Positions 1-11,484 of a DNA stretch of 64,000 nucleotides are shown in pieces. A model generated the notes under the pieces. That model saw only the letters and a program-made list of their open reading frames with translations. It made no database searches and was not told where the DNA came from. How positions within the stretch are numbered: position 1 is the first letter of the stretch; every line of letters starts with the position of its first letter. Source of the stretch: Escherichia coli (GTDB taxonomy: Bacteria > Pseudomonadota > Gammaproteobacteria > Enterobacterales > Enterobacteriaceae); the NCBI RefSeq assembly GCF_048403405.1, contig NZ_CP183129.1; one strand, 5' to 3'. The position numbers were made by a program, and so were the translations under genes.

Positions 1-1556
1 CCTGCGCCCGCGTCGCCATTAACCTTTCCTCGCCGCCGAAGCAAATCTCGGCGCTGACCACTCTGAGCCACCAGCAGGAGGCGGAAATTCGCCAGCTTGA
101 GCGCGAGCTTCGCATCGGGCTGCGTACCAACACCTCACGGATGACCGAGGTGCTGGTGCAGTACGATGAAACGCTGACGGCGCTGGATGAACTGGAAGCG
201 GCCTGGCATCAGCAGCAGGCGCTGGTCCGGGAGATTATCGCGCTGCGCCAGCAGTTGCTGGGCGTGGCAGAAGACGATGCGGCGTCGTTGCCGGACGCAG
301 ATGCCGCGGAGGATACGCCGCCAGAGTCAGAGTCAGAGTCAGAGTCAGAGTCAGAGTCAGAGTCAGAGTCAGAACAGGATAATACCGGTGCCGTACCGGC
401 TGATGAGGCCGACAGAGAACAGCCGGAAGAGACCGCTGAAACAGTTTCCCCGGTACAGCGGCTGGCCCAGCTCACTGCCGAACTGGACGCCCTGCATAAC
501 GACCGGTTGCTGGTCTCCCCGCACGTCGATAAAAAACAGATTGCGGCGGTGATTGCCGAATGGACCGGCGTGCCGCTCAACCGCCTGTCGCAGAATGAAA
601 TGTCGGTCATCACCGACCTGCCGAAATTGCTGGGCGACACCATCAAAGGCCAAGACCTGGCGATTGCCAGCCTGCATAAGCATCTACTGACCGCACGCGC
701 CGACCTGCGTCTTCCGGGACGCCCGCTCGGTGCGTTCCTGCTGGCTGGCCCCAGCGGTGTGGGTAAAACCGAAACCGTCCTGCAACTGGCAGAGCTGCTC
801 TACGGCGGTCGCCAGTACCTGACCACCATCAATATGTCCGAATTCCAGGAGAAACACACCGTCTCGCGGCTGATTGGTTCGCCTCCGGGCTACGTTGGCT
901 ACGGTGAAGGCGGCGTACTGACCGAAGCGATTCGCCAGAAACCCTACTCGGTAGTACTGCTCGATGAAGTGGAAAAAGCGCACCCGGATGTGCTCAACCT
1001 GTTCTACCAGTCGTTCGATAAGGGCGAAATGGCAGACGGTGAAGGCCGCCTGATTGACTGCAAAAATATCGTCTTCTTCCTGACGTCCAACCTCGGCTAC
1101 CAGGTAATAGTCGAGCACGCCGATGACCCGGAAACCATGCAGGAAGAACTGTATCCGGTGCTGGCCGACTTCTTCAAACCTGCCCTGCTGGCGCGTATGG
1201 AAGTGGTGCCGTATCTGCCGCTGTCGAAAGAGACGCTCGCCACCATTATCGCCGGAAAACTGGCCCGTCTGGATAACGTGCTGCGCAGTCGCTTTGGTGC
1301 AGAAGTGGTCATTGAACCGGAAGTGACGGACGAAATCATGAGCCGCGTCACCCGCGCGGAAAACGGCGCGAGGATGCTGGAATCGGTCATCGATGGCGAC
1401 ATGCTACCGCCGCTCTCGCTGCTGCTGTTGCAGAAAATGGCGGCTAACACGGCGATTGCCCGGATTCGGTTGTCGGCGGTGGACGACGCATTTACGGCAG
1501 ACGTGGAAGATGCTCAGAACGACGAGTCCGTCACAAAGGATGAAACGGTTTTATGA
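1..1556 (+). CDS. clpV: T6SS AAA+ ATPase ClpV/TssH, C-terminal ~518 codons (5' end lies outside the window)
   Basis: Reading frame is open from position 3 to the TGA at 1554-1556. Translation carries the second AAA+ module (Walker A LLAGPSGVGKTE, Walker B VVLLDEVEKAHPDV) and a Clp-type C-terminal domain. Confidence 0.85.
   Translation, partial: CARVAINLSSPPKQISALTTLSHQQEAEIRQLERELRIGLRTNTSRMTEVLVQYDETLTALDELEAAWHQQQALVREIIALRQQLLGVAEDDAASLPDADAAEDTPPESESESESESESESESEQDNTGAVPADEADREQPEETAETVSPVQRLAQLTAELDALHNDRLLVSPHVDKKQIAAVIAEWTGVPLNRLSQNEMSVITDLPKLLGDTIKGQDLAIASLHKHLLTARADLRLPGRPLGAFLLAGPSGVGKTETVLQLAELLYGGRQYLTTINMSEFQEKHTVSRLIGSPPGYVGYGEGGVLTEAIRQKPYSVVLLDEVEKAHPDVLNLFYQSFDKGEMADGEGRLIDCKNIVFFLTSNLGYQVIVEHADDPETMQEELYPVLADFFKPALLARMEVVPYLPLSKETLATIIAGKLARLDNVLRSRFGAEVVIEPEVTDEIMSRVTRAENGARMLESVIDGDMLPPLSLLLLQKMAANTAIARIRLSAVDDAFTADVEDAQNDESVTKDETVL
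324..371 (+). repeat. Perfect hexanucleotide tandem repeat (GAGTCA)x8 inside clpV, encoding (Glu-Ser)8
   Basis: Eight identical GAGTCA units read directly from the sequence, in frame with clpV and followed by GAA CAG. Confidence 0.95.
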
Positions 1557-2296
1557 GCAGGTTGCGCGTTTTCCGGCAGACAGGATGGTTTATCGCGGGC
1601 CTGATGACGGGCTTACCCGCCACTGCCGCGCCCGCAGAAACATCGTCAATGGCCGGTGTGGCGGTCGCCGTCGCCACCACGACCCCGCCGGATGCGACAG
1701 CCACGTCACAGGCCATGCAGTCCTGTCGGCGGGAGTCCGCGGCGCTGGAGCGGCTTGACTGCTATGACCGCCTGCTGGCACCGCTGTCCCCGTCAGGGTT
1801 TGACGGGGCGCTGGTCAAAGCCGGTTTTGTGGGCGAGGCCTGGACCCGCGCCACAGAGCAGGAAAAACGTCGCGAGGGCAACACCACAGAACTGCTGGTG
1901 ACGCAGGTGCCGGGGGAGCGCCCGACGGTGGTGATAACCACCCCGGCTATCGGCCATGTTCCGCCGCGCCCGGTGCTGATGTTCAGTTGCGTGGACAATA
2001 TCACCCGGATGCAGGTGGCGCTGATGCACCCTCTGGATGTCCATGATATCGCCGTCACTCTGAATGCCGACAGCCGGGCATTGCGTAGCCACTGGTTTGT
2101 GCGCGAGAACGGCACCCTGCTGGAGTCCAGCCGGGGGCTGTCCGGGATTGATGAAATTAAGCAACTGTTCGGCGCAAAAACGCTGACAGTGGATACCGGC
2201 GCAGATAACGCCGCAGGAAAGCTGACCTTTAACATTGACGGGCTGGCAAGGGCGATTGCCCCCCTGCGCGTTGCCTGCCACTGGGCGGGAGAATAA
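1553..2296 (+). CDS. T6SS-associated VasI-family protein (secreted/periplasmic, N-terminal signal peptide)
   Basis: ATG at 1553 overlaps the clpV stop (ATGA). N-terminal hydrophobic signal-like segment, then an Ala/Thr/Pro-rich tract. Position between clpV and tssA matches vasI in vas-type clusters. Family assignment is from recalled architecture, not a search. Confidence 0.55.
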   Translation: MSRLRVFRQTGWFIAGLMTGLPATAAPAETSSMAGVAVAVATTTPPDATATSQAMQSCRRESAALERLDCYDRLLAPLSPSGFDGALVKAGFVGEAWTRATEQEKRREGNTTELLVTQVPGERPTVVITTPAIGHVPPRPVLMFSCVDNITRMQVALMHPLDVHDIAVTLNADSRALRSHWFVRENGTLLESSRGLSGIDEIKQLFGAKTLTVDTGADNAAGKLTFNIDGLARAIAPLRVACHWAGE

Positions 2297-2300
2297 AAAT

Positions 2301-3713
2301 ATGGCAATGGACTTACGCGATCCGAATGTCTGGATAACGCACCTGCTGGAAAACCTGCCGGAAGAAAAACTGGCATCGGCGCTGAAAGATGACAACCCGG
2401 ACTGGGAGTATATCGACGGCGAAATCGTCAAACTGGGATCTCTGGCCCACAGTCAACTGGATATCCCGGAACTCCAGCGCCGGGGGCTGGTCATTCTGGC
2501 TTCGGAGAGTAAGGACTTTCGTCTGCTGGCGCATCTGCTGAGAACCCTGCAACACGCCGGTGATCCTCATCTCGCATTGCGCCTGCTGGCGCTGTATGTG
2601 GAGCATTACTGGTCGGTGGCTGCGCCGCAGAATATGGCACATAAAAAACGCTTTGCCAGCCAGGTCATTAAACGCTTCGAAACAGGTATTGAAGGCTTTT
2701 CACAGAACGCCGCCACAGCGCAGCGCGACGCGCTGTCAGGGGAACTGGCGAAACTGGCGCAGTGCTGGCAGTCACATAACGCCCCGGAACTGGCACTGGC
2801 TACCGATGATCTTTTTGCCCTGTACCAGCGTGCGTTTAATCGTGCGGCACCGGCTCCTGCCCCCACTCCGGCGGCCTCCGATAGTTCACGACAGACCACC
2901 GCCACGTCTGAAAGCGGCGTGACGCAACCCAGTGCTCCGGCTCCCCAAATCGCCATCGACAGTCACGACGACAAAGCCTGGCGCGACACGCTGTTAAAAG
3001 TGGCGGCTATTTTATGTGAACGCCAGCCGGACTCGCCGCAGGGCTATCGCCTGCGCCGCCATGCCCTGTGGCAATCCATCACCAGTACACCCCAGGCGGA
3101 AAGCGATGGACGTACCCCATTGGCTGCGGTCTCTGCCGATATGGTGGCGGATTACCAGTCCCGGCTTGCCAGCGCGGATATGGCGCTGTGGCAGCAGGTT
3201 GAGAAAAGCGTATTGCTGGCTCCTTACTGGCTGGACGGTCACTGTCTTTCTGCACAGACGGCACTGCGTCTGGGTTACAAACAGGTGGCAGACACCATCC
3301 GCGATGAGGTCATCCGCTTCCTTGAGCGTCTGCCCCAGCTTACCGGGCTGCTGTTTAATGACCGCACACCGTTTCTCAGTGAGCAGACGAAACAATGGCT
3401 GGCAGCTTCGCCCGACGGCAAAGTTGCACCGGTTGCGCAAATCGGTGAGGAATCGCAGGCAGCCAGAGCCTGTTTTGCTGGGCAGGGTCTGGAGGCGGCG
3501 CTGCGATATCTGGACATGCTACCCGAAGGCGATCCCCGCAATCAGTTTCACCGCCAGTACCTTGCCGCACAGTTGACGGAGGAGGCGGGGCTGATACAGC
3601 TTGCGCAGCAACAGTACCGGATGTTGTTGATGATAGGGAGTCAGATGATGGTGTCTGACTGGGAGCCATCATTACTTACGCAGCTTGAACAAAAATTCAC
3701 GGCAGAACAATAA
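2301..3713 (+). CDS. tssA: T6SS protein TssA (VasJ-like, ImpA_N-type N-terminal domain)
   Basis: ATG at 2301 just after the vasI-like stop (the tracked ORF starts further upstream at 2235). About 470 aa, lying between vasI and tssM as vasJ does. Confidence 0.7.
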   Translation: MAMDLRDPNVWITHLLENLPEEKLASALKDDNPDWEYIDGEIVKLGSLAHSQLDIPELQRRGLVILASESKDFRLLAHLLRTLQHAGDPHLALRLLALYVEHYWSVAAPQNMAHKKRFASQVIKRFETGIEGFSQNAATAQRDALSGELAKLAQCWQSHNAPELALATDDLFALYQRAFNRAAPAPAPTPAASDSSRQTTATSESGVTQPSAPAPQIAIDSHDDKAWRDTLLKVAAILCERQPDSPQGYRLRRHALWQSITSTPQAESDGRTPLAAVSADMVADYQSRLASADMALWQQVEKSVLLAPYWLDGHCLSAQTALRLGYKQVADTIRDEVIRFLERLPQLTGLLFNDRTPFLSEQTKQWLAASPDGKVAPVAQIGEESQAARACFAGQGLEAALRYLDMLPEGDPRNQFHRQYLAAQLTEEAGLIQLAQQQYRMLLMIGSQMMVSDWEPSLLTQLEQKFTAEQ

Positions 3714-9125: not shown

Positions 9126-9168
9126 TTTACTGTAATAACATAATAAATTACTATTGCGGAGAGATATA

Positions 9169-10083
9169 ATGGCTGGTTTAAGGAATAATAACAACACACA
9201 GAATGCACAGTGGGCTGATTATGTGGGTGACATTCTTCGGGGGGCTCAACCGATAAACCAGCTAGTACCTCAGCACCCTTATCTTAACGACGTCCCACTC
9301 ATTGATGAATTAAGGCGTCAGAACACTCATCATGTTATTCTCTTGACACTTGATGTTGCAAAAAAAATACTCAGCTCAATAACATCATTTGATTACATTC
9401 ATTTTATCACTACACATCCTTCAGGTATAAAAGATACACTCGCTTGGTTAGTTAACGCGGGTAAATTAATGACTGAGTTTGATGGAAATGGGAAAATTAT
9501 ATTTAACTTTAATACCTTAAAGTATACAAAAGCAAGTTACTTTGAAATACTTGGAGAGAAATATATAAAAATTACAACATCCAGCCCCTGGCTTTTAGAA
9601 AAGCTCGGTAAATATATTTTCTCTTCACGAGCGCCTCAAGTTCTGGAACTCGCTATTGGCTGGCGAGGAGCTTTATCTGAATCAATAAAAGGAGTTAAGT
9701 TCTGTATCTGGTTTTCAGTAGCCTGGAGAACCATAGAATTTATTATGAGTTCAGAGCGAGATCTGGTTAATTTTCTTGGTGATTTTTCAATGGATGTGGC
9801 CAAAGCAGTGATTGCAGGCGGTGTTGCAACTGCTATTGGAAGCCTGGCTTCTTTTGCCTGTCTTAGTTTTGGCCTTCCAGTAATTCTTGTAGGAGGAGCA
9901 ATTTTACTTACAGGGATAGTGTGTACAGTTGTTTTAAATGAAATCGATGCTCAATACCATTTATCAGAAAAATTAAAAGATGCAATTAGAGATGGACTAA
10001 AACGGCAACAGGAACTTGATAAATGGAAAAGGGAAAACATGACTCCATTTATGTATGTTCTTAACACTTCCCCCGTGATATGA
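9169..10083 (+). CDS. Hypothetical protein; candidate Hcp-linked T6SS effector with C-terminal glycine-zipper hydrophobic helices
   Basis: ATG at 9169 with GGAG 7 nt upstream (tracked ORF begins at a TTG at 9154). AT-rich codon usage matching hcp. C-terminal segment VAKAVIAGGVATAIGSLASFACLSFGLPVILVGGAILLTGIVCTVVL. Function is inferred from context only. Confidence 0.55.
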   Translation: MAGLRNNNNTQNAQWADYVGDILRGAQPINQLVPQHPYLNDVPLIDELRRQNTHHVILLTLDVAKKILSSITSFDYIHFITTHPSGIKDTLAWLVNAGKLMTEFDGNGKIIFNFNTLKYTKASYFEILGEKYIKITTSSPWLLEKLGKYIFSSRAPQVLELAIGWRGALSESIKGVKFCIWFSVAWRTIEFIMSSERDLVNFLGDFSMDVAKAVIAGGVATAIGSLASFACLSFGLPVILVGGAILLTGIVCTVVLNEIDAQYHLSEKLKDAIRDGLKRQQELDKWKRENMTPFMYVLNTSPVI

Positions 10084-10247
10084 GGATTAACTATGCGTTT
10101 ACATGTTAAATTGAAAGAGTTTTTTTCGATGTTTTTTATAGCCATATTATTTTTCCCTGCATTCAATGCTTCTTTATTTTTTACCGGAATTAGGTGATGC
10201 TGCCAACTTACTGATTTAGTGTATGATGGTGTTTTTGAGGTGCTCCA

Positions 10248-10523
10248 GTGGCTTCTGTTTCTATCAGCTGTCCCTCCTGTTCAGCTACTGACGGGGTGGT
10301 GCGTAACGGCAAAAGCACCGCCGGACATCAGCGCTATCTCTGCTCTCACTGCCGTAAAACATGGCAACTGCAGTTCACTTACACCGCTTCTCAACCCGGT
10401 ACGCACCAGAAAATCATTGATATGGCCATGAATGGCGTTGGATGCCGGGCAACCGCCCGCATTATGGGCGTTGGCCTCAACACGATTTTCCGCCATTTAA
10501 AAAACTCAGGCCGCAGTCGGTAA
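10248..10523 (+). CDS. insA: IS1 InsA (transposition inhibitor / N-terminal part of transposase)
   Basis: 91-aa ORF beginning [43 protein letters not shown], inside IS1. Confidence 0.9.
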
Positions 10524-10945
10524 CCTCGCGCATACAGCCGGGCAGTGACGTCATCGTCTGCGCGGAAATGGACGAACAGTGGGGATACGTCGGGGCTAAA
10601 TCGCGCCAGCGCTGGCTGTTTTACGCGTATGACAGGCTCCGGAAGACGGTTGTTGCGCACGTATTCGGTGAACGCACTCTGGCCACACTGGAGCGTCTTC
10701 TAAGCCTGCTGTCGGCCTTTGAGGTCGTGGTATGGATGACGGATGGCTGGCCGCTGTATGAATCCCGCCTGAAGGGAAAGCTGCACGTAATCAGCAAGCG
10801 TTACACTCAGCGAATTGAGCGGCATAACCTGAATCTGAGACAACATCTGGCAAGGCTGGGACGGAAGTCACTGTCGTTCTCAAAATCGGTGGAGCTGCAT
10901 GACAAGGTCATCGGGCATTATCTGAACATAAAACACTATCAGTAA
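10442..10945 (+). CDS. insB: IS1 InsB reading frame (expressed as InsAB' transposase by -1 frameshifting)
   Basis: -1 frame ORF overlapping the end of insA, translation typical of IS1 InsB ([21 protein letters not shown]...). Confidence 0.88.
10496..10505 (+). promoter_or_regulatory. IS1 programmed -1 ribosomal frameshift site TTTAAAAAAC
   Basis: A6C motif lies in the insA/insB overlap; the IS1 frameshift mechanism is established knowledge. Confidence 0.8.
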
Positions 10946-11484
10946 GTTGGAGTCATTACCCGGAATTAAACCTCTATATTCAATAATAAAAGGCTCCACG
11001 GAAATATTTTATGATTGGAGAATGTTGATTCTATGCTTCGGTTTCATATCGTTTTCCTTGTTAAATATTCATGTAATTTTACTAACAATAATAAAATCAT
11101 TCTTAATAAAAAAAACAAAGGTAATCAATTTCGCCACAGACATAACAATACAGCTAACTCTTATATTTTTACTAATAGCTATCGTAATAGCACCTTTAAT
11201 AGCTCCTTTTGTCACAGGATATGTCAATGCTAATTGTCACCCCTGCGGTAATAACACGGGGATTTTCCCAGGAGCAATCTATATTAAAAATGGCATAAAA
11301 TGTAATAATGAACATATTTCTCGCAAGGAAGATTAAGCAGTTAAATAATTAAATATTCTAAAACAAACAGTTTTTAACGCCGGATTCCATGTCCTTTCTT
11401 GCACTGTCTTTGTCAGGAACAATTTCTTATGCAAAGAATTTTGTATTATTGCCGCCAGAAATTCCTGGCGGCAGATATAATTTA

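What the first reader, a model, noticed from the sequence alone, without database searches (positions are those of the whole stretch)
1553..2296. VasI-like protein with an Ala/Thr/Pro-rich low-complexity tract after its signal peptide
The segment AAPAETSSMAGVAVAVATTTPPDATATSQA follows a hydrophobic N-terminus and resembles a flexible or possibly O-glycosylation-like linker, atypical for a small T6SS accessory protein. It may tether the folded domain to the envelope.
Basis: seen in the sequence. Interest (0 to 1): 0.3.

Follow-up and report, generated by a model that had tools for sequence, protein, structure and literature searches.

The report
Flexible spacer in E. coli VasI
The flagged stretch is a real but ordinary disordered spacer between the export signal and the folded domain of VasI/TagO, a known accessory protein of the E. 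coli type VI secretion system, and nothing suggests it is a membrane tether or a glycosylation site.

Summary
The ORF at 1553-2296 (+) is real. It is identical to the RefSeq E. coli vasI/tagO gene of the T6SS-2 cluster (tssH-vasI-tssA-tssM-vasL-hcp next to yafT/dnaQ). The tract is at residues 25-54 (nt 1625-1714), and 26 of its 30 residues are A/T/P/S/V (1 of 5000 shuffles reaches this).

Only residues about 26/29-45 form a spacer:
- AlphaFold gives pLDDT below 50 there.
- Close homologues are 39% identical there, against 84% in the domain.
- The spacer is mostly absent in distant family members (median 9 residues, against 25 in the enterobacterial clade).
- A natural in-frame 36-nt deletion of its core sits in an intact T6SS cluster.

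Residues 47-54 already belong to a conserved helix that leads to the invariant C58-x11-C70 pair.

The start at 1553 is the only tenable one: it is the first start in the ORF, has an ATGA overlap with tssH, Met33 is not conserved, and signal-like N-termini occur family-wide.

The protein has no lipobox and has two A-x-A cleavage sites, so nothing would remain to tether it. Glycosylation is unsupported.

Verdict: a known protein with an ordinary, clade-specific, length-variable disordered spacer. Low interest. By-product: the VasI β-domain resembles Bartonella IalB.

The parts
1..1556 (+). 3' part of tssH/clpV. Its stop TGA (1554-1556) overlaps the vasI ATG.
1536..1540 (+). AAGGA Shine-Dalgarno-like motif, 12 nt upstream of the ATG. 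In other alleles it is GAGGA or GAAGA.
   Evidence: read from sequence; five alleles compared
1553..2296 (+). vasI/tagO CDS, 247 aa, identical to RefSeq WP_000088867.1.
1553..1636 (+). Predicted Sec signal peptide, residues 1-25 or 1-28. n-region MSRLRVFRQ, h-region TGWFIAGLMTGL, candidate cleavage sites ATA25|A and APA28|E.
   Evidence: cleavage is inferred, not shown
1625..1714 (+).
1628..1690 (+). The actual disordered, clade-specific spacer, residues 26-46. It has no K/R and is 73% G+C. Second codon positions are 76% G+C (49% in the rest of the gene), as Ala/Thr/Pro/Ser codons all carry C there.
1649..1675 (+). Hydrophobic, β-branched core of the spacer, MAGVAVAVA (residues 33-41). It is the most hydrophobic 9-mer of the N-terminal 70 residues (KD 2.37). 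Met33 is an alternative start used by some gene callers (cluster P0013, 215 aa).
1655..1690 (+). 36 nt (12 codons) missing in the natural variant P0035/L007. The segment is bounded by GCCGG direct repeats.
1691..1777 (+). Conserved helix-turn-helix (helices 46-58 and 64-75) carrying invariant C58, R67, C70 and D72.
1835..2293 (+). High-confidence helix plus β-sandwich domain (residues 95-247, pLDDT 85-98) with invariant C146, W181, G195, C242 and W244. The fold is IalB-like.
2301..3713 (+). tssA (VasJ-type), starting 4 nt after the vasI stop.

Best explanation
The gene is vasI/tagO of the E. coli T6SS-2 cluster. Translation starts at 1553, coupled to the tssH stop.

Inferred steps:
- The product is exported by Sec using residues 1-25/28 as a cleavable signal peptide.
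- Residues about 26/29-45 remain as a free, intrinsically disordered N-terminal tail that is rich in Ala/Thr/Pro/Ser/Val and has no basic residue.
- The folded protein starts at about D47 with a two-helix hairpin, probably stapled by C58-C70. An IalB-like β-sandwich follows, probably stapled by C146-C242.

The tract is a passive, clade-specific spacer. It tolerates substitutions and in-frame indels, and it keeps the first basic residues (R59, R60) about 30 residues away from the signal peptide, which suits Sec export. It is not needed for the fold and most likely not for function.

VasI itself is most likely a periplasmic accessory factor that improves productive delivery by the T6SS rather than tube secretion as such. 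This rests on the V. cholerae orthologue's phenotype.
For: Identity and context:
- Searches identify VasI in a tssH-vasI-tssA-tssM-vasL-hcp cluster.
- 2836 of 5426 complete E. coli genomes carry the gene. All 37 full-length rows sampled down the ranking span exactly 744 nt.

Start codon:
- 1553 is the first possible start in the ORF.
- The ATGA overlap is conserved in five alleles of 90-100% identity.
- Codons 26-46 have pN/pS 0.34, so they are translated in this frame.
- Met33 is kept in only 17% of close homologues.

Export:
- The family-wide N-terminal hydrophobic stretch has median KD9 2.42 and KD12 2.09, like exported controls.
- 129 of 139 homologues have a -3/-1 site.
- Four Cys are invariant across 139 sequences down to 23% identity.
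- VCA0118 is described as predicted to be exported (PMC3166118, PMC2492809).

Disorder and dispensability:
- pLDDT is below 50 for residues 22-45 in E. coli and 53-59 for the longer Salmonella tract.
- Identity is 39% in the tract against 84% in the domain in close homologues. Distant homologues show 64% gaps and 4% identity there.
- Spacer length ranges 8-36 in the close clade and has a median of 9 in distant members.
- The 12-codon deletion variant sits in an intact syntenic cluster.

No basic residue occurs in 26-57, against 6 in 58-100.

VasI role:
- The ΔVCA0118 mutant secretes Hcp and VgrG-1 normally but is defective in killing amoebae and E. coli (PMC3166118).
- VasI abundance stays stable after translation arrest, like non-secreted components (PMC6565705).
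Against: - The hydrophobic stretch of this E. coli allele is marginal (KD12 1.38). It is 6th lowest of 139 homologues and below all six exported controls. No trained signal-peptide predictor was available, so export and cleavage are inferred.
- Within E. coli the tract length is invariant and pN/pS is below 1. In 25 of 64 close homologues the spacer is exactly 25 residues, with a semi-conserved Gly35 (63%) and hydrophobic core. Some length or sequence constraint therefore cannot be excluded.
Confidence: 0.72

Rival explanations
1. Tether. The N-terminal hydrophobic segment is not cleaved and acts as an inner-membrane signal anchor. The roughly 20-residue tract then lets the folded domain reach the periplasmic part of the T6SS membrane complex.
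For: The h-region is weak and atypical for a cleaved signal. About 10 of 139 family members have a lipobox-like motif (for example LSAC in P0260, ATGC in P0215, LVGC in P0103). In those members a spacer would be a true tether, which suggests the family works close to a membrane. PMC2492809 predicted a transmembrane segment for VCA0118.
Against: The hydrophobic run is only about 11 residues and contains Gly and Thr, which is too short for a stable membrane helix. Two A-x-A sites follow it directly. 129 of 139 homologues have such sites. There is no Cys before C58, so no lipid anchor in this protein.
Confidence: 0.1
2. Docking arm. After cleavage, the β-prone hydrophobic core GVAVAVATTT of the free N-terminal tail binds a periplasmic partner (TssJ, the TssM periplasmic domain or VasL) by strand addition. 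From general knowledge, the disordered N-terminus of TolB binds TolA this way.
For: Spacer length is constant in all sampled E. coli and in 25 of 64 close homologues. Gly35 is 63% conserved and followed by V/A/I-rich residues across Escherichia, Citrobacter and Salmonella. pN/pS is 0.34.
Against: The core is absent in 95-100% of distant family members. It is deleted in a lineage whose T6SS cluster is intact. AlphaFold gives it no structure. No partner was tested.
Confidence: 0.1
3. The tract is not translated, or only partly. The true start is Met33 (215-aa product, as some gene callers report) or Met55.
For: Cluster P0013 (229 member sequences) starts at Met33. The family HMMs begin at residues 54-58.
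Against: No Shine-Dalgarno-like sequence lies before either ATG (read). Met33 is not conserved (17% in close homologues). A product starting there would lack an export signal, although the family has signal-like N-termini and four invariant Cys. The ATGA coupling at 1553 is conserved, and the frame shows purifying selection across codons 26-46. RefSeq uses 1553.
Confidence: 0.05
4. O-glycosylated linker. Ser/Thr of the tract carry glycans, as in the Ala/Ser/Pro-rich regions targeted by general O-glycosylation systems of Neisseria, Burkholderia or Acinetobacter (general knowledge).
For: The composition (9 Ser/Thr in 30 residues) and a disordered position just after the signal peptide resemble such targets.
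Against: No oligosaccharyltransferase-like gene appears among the annotated genes of the cluster or of the first 50 kb of the window. From general knowledge, E. coli is not known to have a general O-glycosylation pathway. The Ser/Thr positions are not conserved.
Confidence: 0.03

Closest known systems
VasI / TagO family (Pfam PF11319, formerly DUF3121; NCBIfam TIGR03360; prototype V. cholerae VCA0118)
   Same: It scores well above both curated cut-offs. It has the same gene neighbourhood as in V. cholerae (clpV ... vasI-vasJ/tssA-vasK/tssM-vasL). All nine family-invariant residues are present. Its N-terminal export signal is like the rest of the family's.
   Different: The spacer between signal and domain is about 25 residues in the Escherichia/Citrobacter/Salmonella clade, against a median of 9 in distant members. 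VCA0118 is 227 aa, against 247 here.
Disordered linkers of envelope lipoproteins such as RcsF and LpoB (general knowledge; RcsF is encoded in this same window)
   Same: A disordered stretch directly after the export signal, rich in small residues and Pro.
   Different: Those linkers hang from a lipid-modified Cys and act as true tethers. E. coli VasI has no lipobox, so after cleavage nothing anchors the tract. A minority of VasI homologues elsewhere do have lipobox-like motifs.
TolB N-terminal disordered segment that binds TolA by strand addition (general knowledge)
   Same: A short free N-terminal tail left after signal-peptidase cleavage on a periplasmic protein, with β-branched hydrophobic residues.
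   Different: There is no evidence of a partner here. The VasI tail is not conserved across the family and is naturally deleted in one lineage.
Bartonella henselae invasion-associated protein B, IalB (PDB 3dtd)
   Different: There is no detectable sequence similarity (9-16% identity, no Pfam IalB hit at E up to 1). VasI has an extra N-terminal helical hairpin and the spacer. This concerns the domain, not the flagged tract.

Membership tests
VasI/TagO (PF11319, TIGR03360) | Profile score above the curated cut-off | tested here: met
   Pfam 178.6 bits against 26.5; TIGR03360 equivalog 256.3 bits against 124.2
VasI/TagO (PF11319, TIGR03360) | Encoded inside a T6SS cluster next to tssH, tssA, tssM and vasL | tested here: met
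   same order in the variant locus L007
VasI/TagO (PF11319, TIGR03360) | Family-invariant residues (C-x11-C-[FY]-D motif, second Cys pair, W181, G195, W244) | tested here: met
   C58 R67 C70 D72 C146 W181 G195 C242 W244 are invariant in 139 sequences
VasI/TagO (PF11319, TIGR03360) | Needed for T6SS-dependent killing but not for Hcp secretion | not testable with these tools
   Known only for V. cholerae VCA0118 (PMC3166118)
Sec signal peptide cleaved by signal peptidase I | Basic n-region | tested here: met
   R3, R5 and R8 precede the hydrophobic stretch; 123 of 139 homologues have K/R there
Sec signal peptide cleaved by signal peptidase I | Hydrophobic h-region | tested here: inconclusive
   KD9 1.90 and KD12 1.38, below six exported controls (KD9 2.20-3.23, KD12 2.06-2.97) and overlapping cytoplasmic proteins. 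The family median is 2.42 / 2.09.
Sec signal peptide cleaved by signal peptidase I | Small residues at -3 and -1, no Pro at +1 | tested here: met
   ATA25|A and APA28|E; 129 of 139 homologues have such a site
Sec signal peptide cleaved by signal peptidase I | Call by a trained predictor, or an experimentally determined mature N-terminus | not testable with these tools
   No SignalP-type tool or proteomic data available
Bacterial lipoprotein (signal peptidase II) | Lipobox ending in Cys at the end of the signal peptide | tested here: not met
   The first Cys is C58. About 10 of 139 homologues from other taxa have a lipobox-like motif.
Tat signal peptide | Twin-arginine motif S/T-R-R-x-F-L-K | tested here: not met
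   The sequence reads S-R-L-R-V-F-R, with no consecutive Arg pair
Intrinsically disordered linker | No predicted structure | tested here: met
   pLDDT below 50 for residues 22-45; 53-59 for the longer Salmonella tract
Intrinsically disordered linker | Low sequence conservation with length variation | tested here: met
Target of a general O-glycosylation system | O-oligosaccharyltransferase encoded in the genome | not tested
   None among the annotated genes of the cluster or of the first 50 kb of the window. The whole genome was not searched.
IalB-like fold | Structural superposition on IalB | tested here: met
   [not shown]
IalB-like fold | Sequence membership in the Pfam IalB family | tested here: not met
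   Only PF11319 matched at E up to 1

The most novel reading that the evidence does not exclude
The enterobacterial VasI spacer may not be inert. Its length is fixed at 25 residues in E. coli and many relatives. Its β-prone core GVAVAVATTT could dock by strand addition onto a periplasmic part of the T6SS membrane complex, much as TolB's tail docks on TolA. That would position an IalB-like domain that makes firing productive, and would explain why VasI is needed for killing but not for Hcp release.
Probability: 0.07. Interest if true: 0.45.

Novelty: already known. Interest (0 to 1): 0.12.

Why it matters
It matters little for the tract itself. Short disordered, Ala/Thr/Pro/Ser-rich spacers after export signals are common in envelope proteins. 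This one behaves as a tolerant, clade-specific spacer on a gene that RefSeq already annotates identically.

The work does give some modest practical value:
- It fixes the correct start codon. Some gene callers report a 215-aa form that starts inside the tract.
- It shows that this E. coli allele has an unusually weak signal peptide.
- It gives a boundary (about D47) for construct design.
- It records that the poorly understood VasI domain has an IalB-like fold with two probable disulfides, which points to a periplasmic role.

Tried and rejected
- PDB sequence search found nothing at E up to 1.
- The afdb50 fold library was unavailable.
- A literature search for 'T6SS-2 / Escherichia coli / aspV' returned nothing. 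DUF3121/PF11319/TIGR03360 gave only the 2011 V. cholerae paper and an unrelated machine-learning paper. No paper in the library links VasI with IalB.
- TRF found no tandem repeat in the tract, so repeat slippage of a unit does not explain it. The one natural deletion lies between 5-nt GCCGG repeats.
- The long antisense ORFs (1762-2376 and 1793-2431, minus strand) and the +2-frame ORF 1393-1758 have no Pfam match. They are taken as by-products of the 64% G+C coding sequence.
- My first crude signal-peptide heuristic picked the tract's own hydrophobic core as the h-region. I rejected a 41-residue signal peptide cleaved at AVA41|T. The segment between the two hydrophobic patches contains Glu29 and Pro residues, and Salmonella homologues have a canonical signal ending at the position aligned with A28.
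- Gene coordinates from strain 4621 (locus L002) could not be applied to the window, because an IS1 is present and an IS200 is absent. Control proteins were therefore taken from L002 itself.
Full report
**Observation.**
- The window holds an ORF at 1553..2296 on the + strand encoding 247 residues.
- It is 33% Ala, 20% Thr and 10% each of Pro, Ser and Val. 26 of its 30 residues belong to A/T/P/S/V, a density reached by 1 of 5000 shuffles of the protein.
- Its Shannon entropy is the lowest in the protein, but 454 of 5000 shuffles reach that value. Tandem Repeats Finder finds no repeat there. It is therefore a compositional bias, not a repeat.
- The DNA of the tract is 73% G+C in a 64% G+C gene, while the window as a whole is 52%. 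The bias falls on second codon positions, which are 76% G+C in the tract and 49% in the rest of the gene, as Ala/Thr/Pro/Ser codons all carry C there.

**What the gene is.**
- The protein matches Pfam VasI (PF11319, E=1.3e-52, residues 58-244). It also matches the NCBIfam equivalog TIGR03360 (256 bits against a cut-off of 124, residues 54-244).
- The window is E. coli chromosome. The same 744-nt CDS is annotated vasI (WP_000088867.1) in a tssB...tssH-vasI-tssA-tssM-vasL-hcp cluster beside yafT, tRNA-Asp and dnaQ. The literature calls this cluster T6SS-2 and the gene tagO (PMC10562709).
- 2836 of 5426 complete E. coli genomes carry it. All 37 full-length rows sampled down the ranking, from 100% to 89.7% identity, span exactly 744 nt.
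- No solved structure shares detectable sequence with it.

**Start codon.**
- 1553 is the first possible start in the ORF.
- Its ATG overlaps the tssH stop (ATGA). An AAGGA lies 12 nt upstream. Both the overlap and a purine-rich motif are kept in five alleles of 90-100% identity.
- Across those alleles, codons 26-46 show pN/pS 0.34, against 0.11 for the domain. The tract is therefore read in this frame.
- Some database entries start at Met33 (cluster P0013, 215 aa). Met33 is kept in only 17% of close homologues, has no Shine-Dalgarno-like sequence, and would give a protein without an export signal.

**Export signal.**
- Residues 1-21 have three Arg followed by TGWFIAGLMTGL. Two signal-peptidase-I-type sites follow, ATA25|A and APA28|E. 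The second aligns with the SFA|Q site of Salmonella homologues.
- There is no Cys before C58, so no lipobox, and no twin-arginine motif.
- In this allele the hydrophobic stretch is weak. Its 12-residue Kyte-Doolittle mean is 1.38, against 2.06-2.97 for six known exported proteins encoded nearby. It is the 6th lowest of 139 homologues.
- At family level the evidence is clear:
  - the median is 2.09;
  - 123 of 139 homologues have K/R before the stretch;
  - 129 of 139 have a -3/-1 site after it;
  - four Cys are invariant down to 23% identity, which fits an oxidising compartment.
- VCA0118 was likewise described as predicted to be exported (PMC3166118, PMC2492809).
- Export and cleavage remain inferences. 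No trained predictor was available.

**Anatomy of the tract.**
- AlphaFold2 with a 139-sequence alignment gives pLDDT below 50 for residues 22-45. It then predicts helices 46-58 and 64-75, a second floppy loop at 79-90, a helix at 95-105, and a β-domain with pLDDT 85-98.
In close homologues, identity over residues 47-57 is 65% with no gaps.
- The true spacer is about 26/29-45. There, close homologues (61% or more identical overall) are 39% identical with 15% gaps, against 84% identity in the domain. Distant homologues are 64% gaps and 4% identical, and the core residues 33-38 (MAGVAV) are missing in 85-100% of them.
- Spacer length, measured from the column of L21 to the column of D47, has a median of 25 (range 8-36) in the close clade and 9 (range 0-44) in distant members.
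- Among 78 full-length representatives of 50%-identity clusters, the first invariant Cys sits at a median position of 39. The E. coli value of 58 is in the top 8%.
- The longest close variant (Salmonella P0108, 253 aa) also has no confident structure there. pLDDT is 53-59, and only the first helix is extended.

**Dispensability.**
- A variant (P0035, 235 aa; similarly P0033 and P0038) lacks 12 codons of the tract core.
- The 36-nt gap lies between GCCGG direct repeats.
- The gene sits on a 545-kb scaffold in a fully intact, syntenic cluster from tssF to hcp, next to yafT and dnaQ.
- The core can therefore be lost without decay of the system.

**Constraint that remains.**
- Length is invariant in the sampled E. 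coli, and 25 of 64 close homologues have exactly 25 spacer residues.
- Gly35 is 63% conserved and followed by V/A/I-rich residues.
- pN/pS is below 1.
- This keeps a small probability for a functional arm. It also fits recent common ancestry with weak purifying selection.

**Mechanism.**
The best-supported reading is a Sec-exported periplasmic VasI whose spacer is a passive, flexible N-terminal tail.
- The tail has no basic residue in 26-57, while residues 58-100 have six. This matches the known preference of Sec substrates for non-basic early mature regions (general knowledge).
- A tether is unlikely, because nothing would anchor the tail after cleavage.
- About 10 of 139 homologues from other taxa do have lipobox-like motifs. 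The tether idea may hold for those members.
- Glycosylation has no support.

For VasI as a whole:
- Its level stays stable after translation arrest, like non-secreted components (PMC6565705).
- I therefore take VasI to be a periplasmic accessory factor that makes firing productive. This is inference.

**By-product.**
- No paper in the searched library links VasI and IalB.
- This rests on a predicted model and on no sequence similarity.

**Verdict.**
- The tether and glycosylation ideas are not supported, and the tract is about a third shorter than quoted.
- The protein is already annotated, and the feature is an ordinary clade-specific spacer. Interest is low.

Noticed in passing
window 322-373 (inside tssH): A perfect hexanucleotide repeat (CAGAGT) x 8.7 encodes a (Ser-Glu)n run in TssH/ClpV. 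The annotated tssH length differs between E. coli strains in multiples of three (2802, 2733, 2760, 2763 and 2766 nt). This may reflect copy-number variation of the repeat.
   Followed up: partly
[not shown]
   Followed up: partly
window 1553-1627 (VasI residues 1-25): The signal-peptide hydrophobic core of this E. coli allele is unusually weak: KD12 1.38, 6th lowest of 139 homologues, below six exported control proteins. Synonymous diversity in these 25 codons is also very low among five alleles (pS 0.022, against 0.15-0.27 elsewhere in the gene; small counts).
   Followed up: partly
window 1769-1822 (VasI residues 73-90): A second low-confidence loop (pLDDT below 50 for residues 79-90) exists in two distinct allelic forms within E. 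coli...RLLAPLSPSGFDGALVKA... and ...RILAPEQAGFGGAALVKA.... Residues 47-100 have the highest pN/pS of the post-signal-peptide segments (0.50), higher than the flagged tract; only the 25-codon signal-peptide segment is higher (1.59), on small counts.
   Followed up: no
window about 10192-10956: An IS1 element (InsA at 10248-10523, IS1 transposase at 10442-10945) is inserted downstream of hcp relative to strain 4621. That strain instead carries an IS200C near tRNA-Asp which the window lacks.
   Followed up: partly
window 9154-10083: The 309-aa ORF just after hcp is intact here, but its counterpart in strain 4621 is annotated as a pseudogene with an internal stop. It has no Pfam match. It could be a T6SS cargo or immunity candidate.
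   Followed up: no
database homologues P0014, P0017, P0018, P0050, P0080: Many E. coli entries are fusions of the VasI N-terminus with IcmF_C (PF06744) or VasL (PF12486) domains, or truncated VasI forms. This indicates recurrent internal deletions of T6SS-2. PMC10562709 describes a tagO-tssH deletion between CCGGCACCTG direct repeats.
   Followed up: no
homologues P0095, P0103, P0148, P0215, P0260: A minority of VasI family members (about 10 of 139) carry lipobox-like motifs (for example LSAC, ATGC, LVGC, VASC). They may be lipoproteins, unlike the E. coli protein.
   Followed up: no
window 1762-2431, minus strand: Two long antisense ORFs (204 and 212 aa) overlap vasI. They have no Pfam match and are taken as by-products of the G+C-rich coding strand.
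   Followed up: yes
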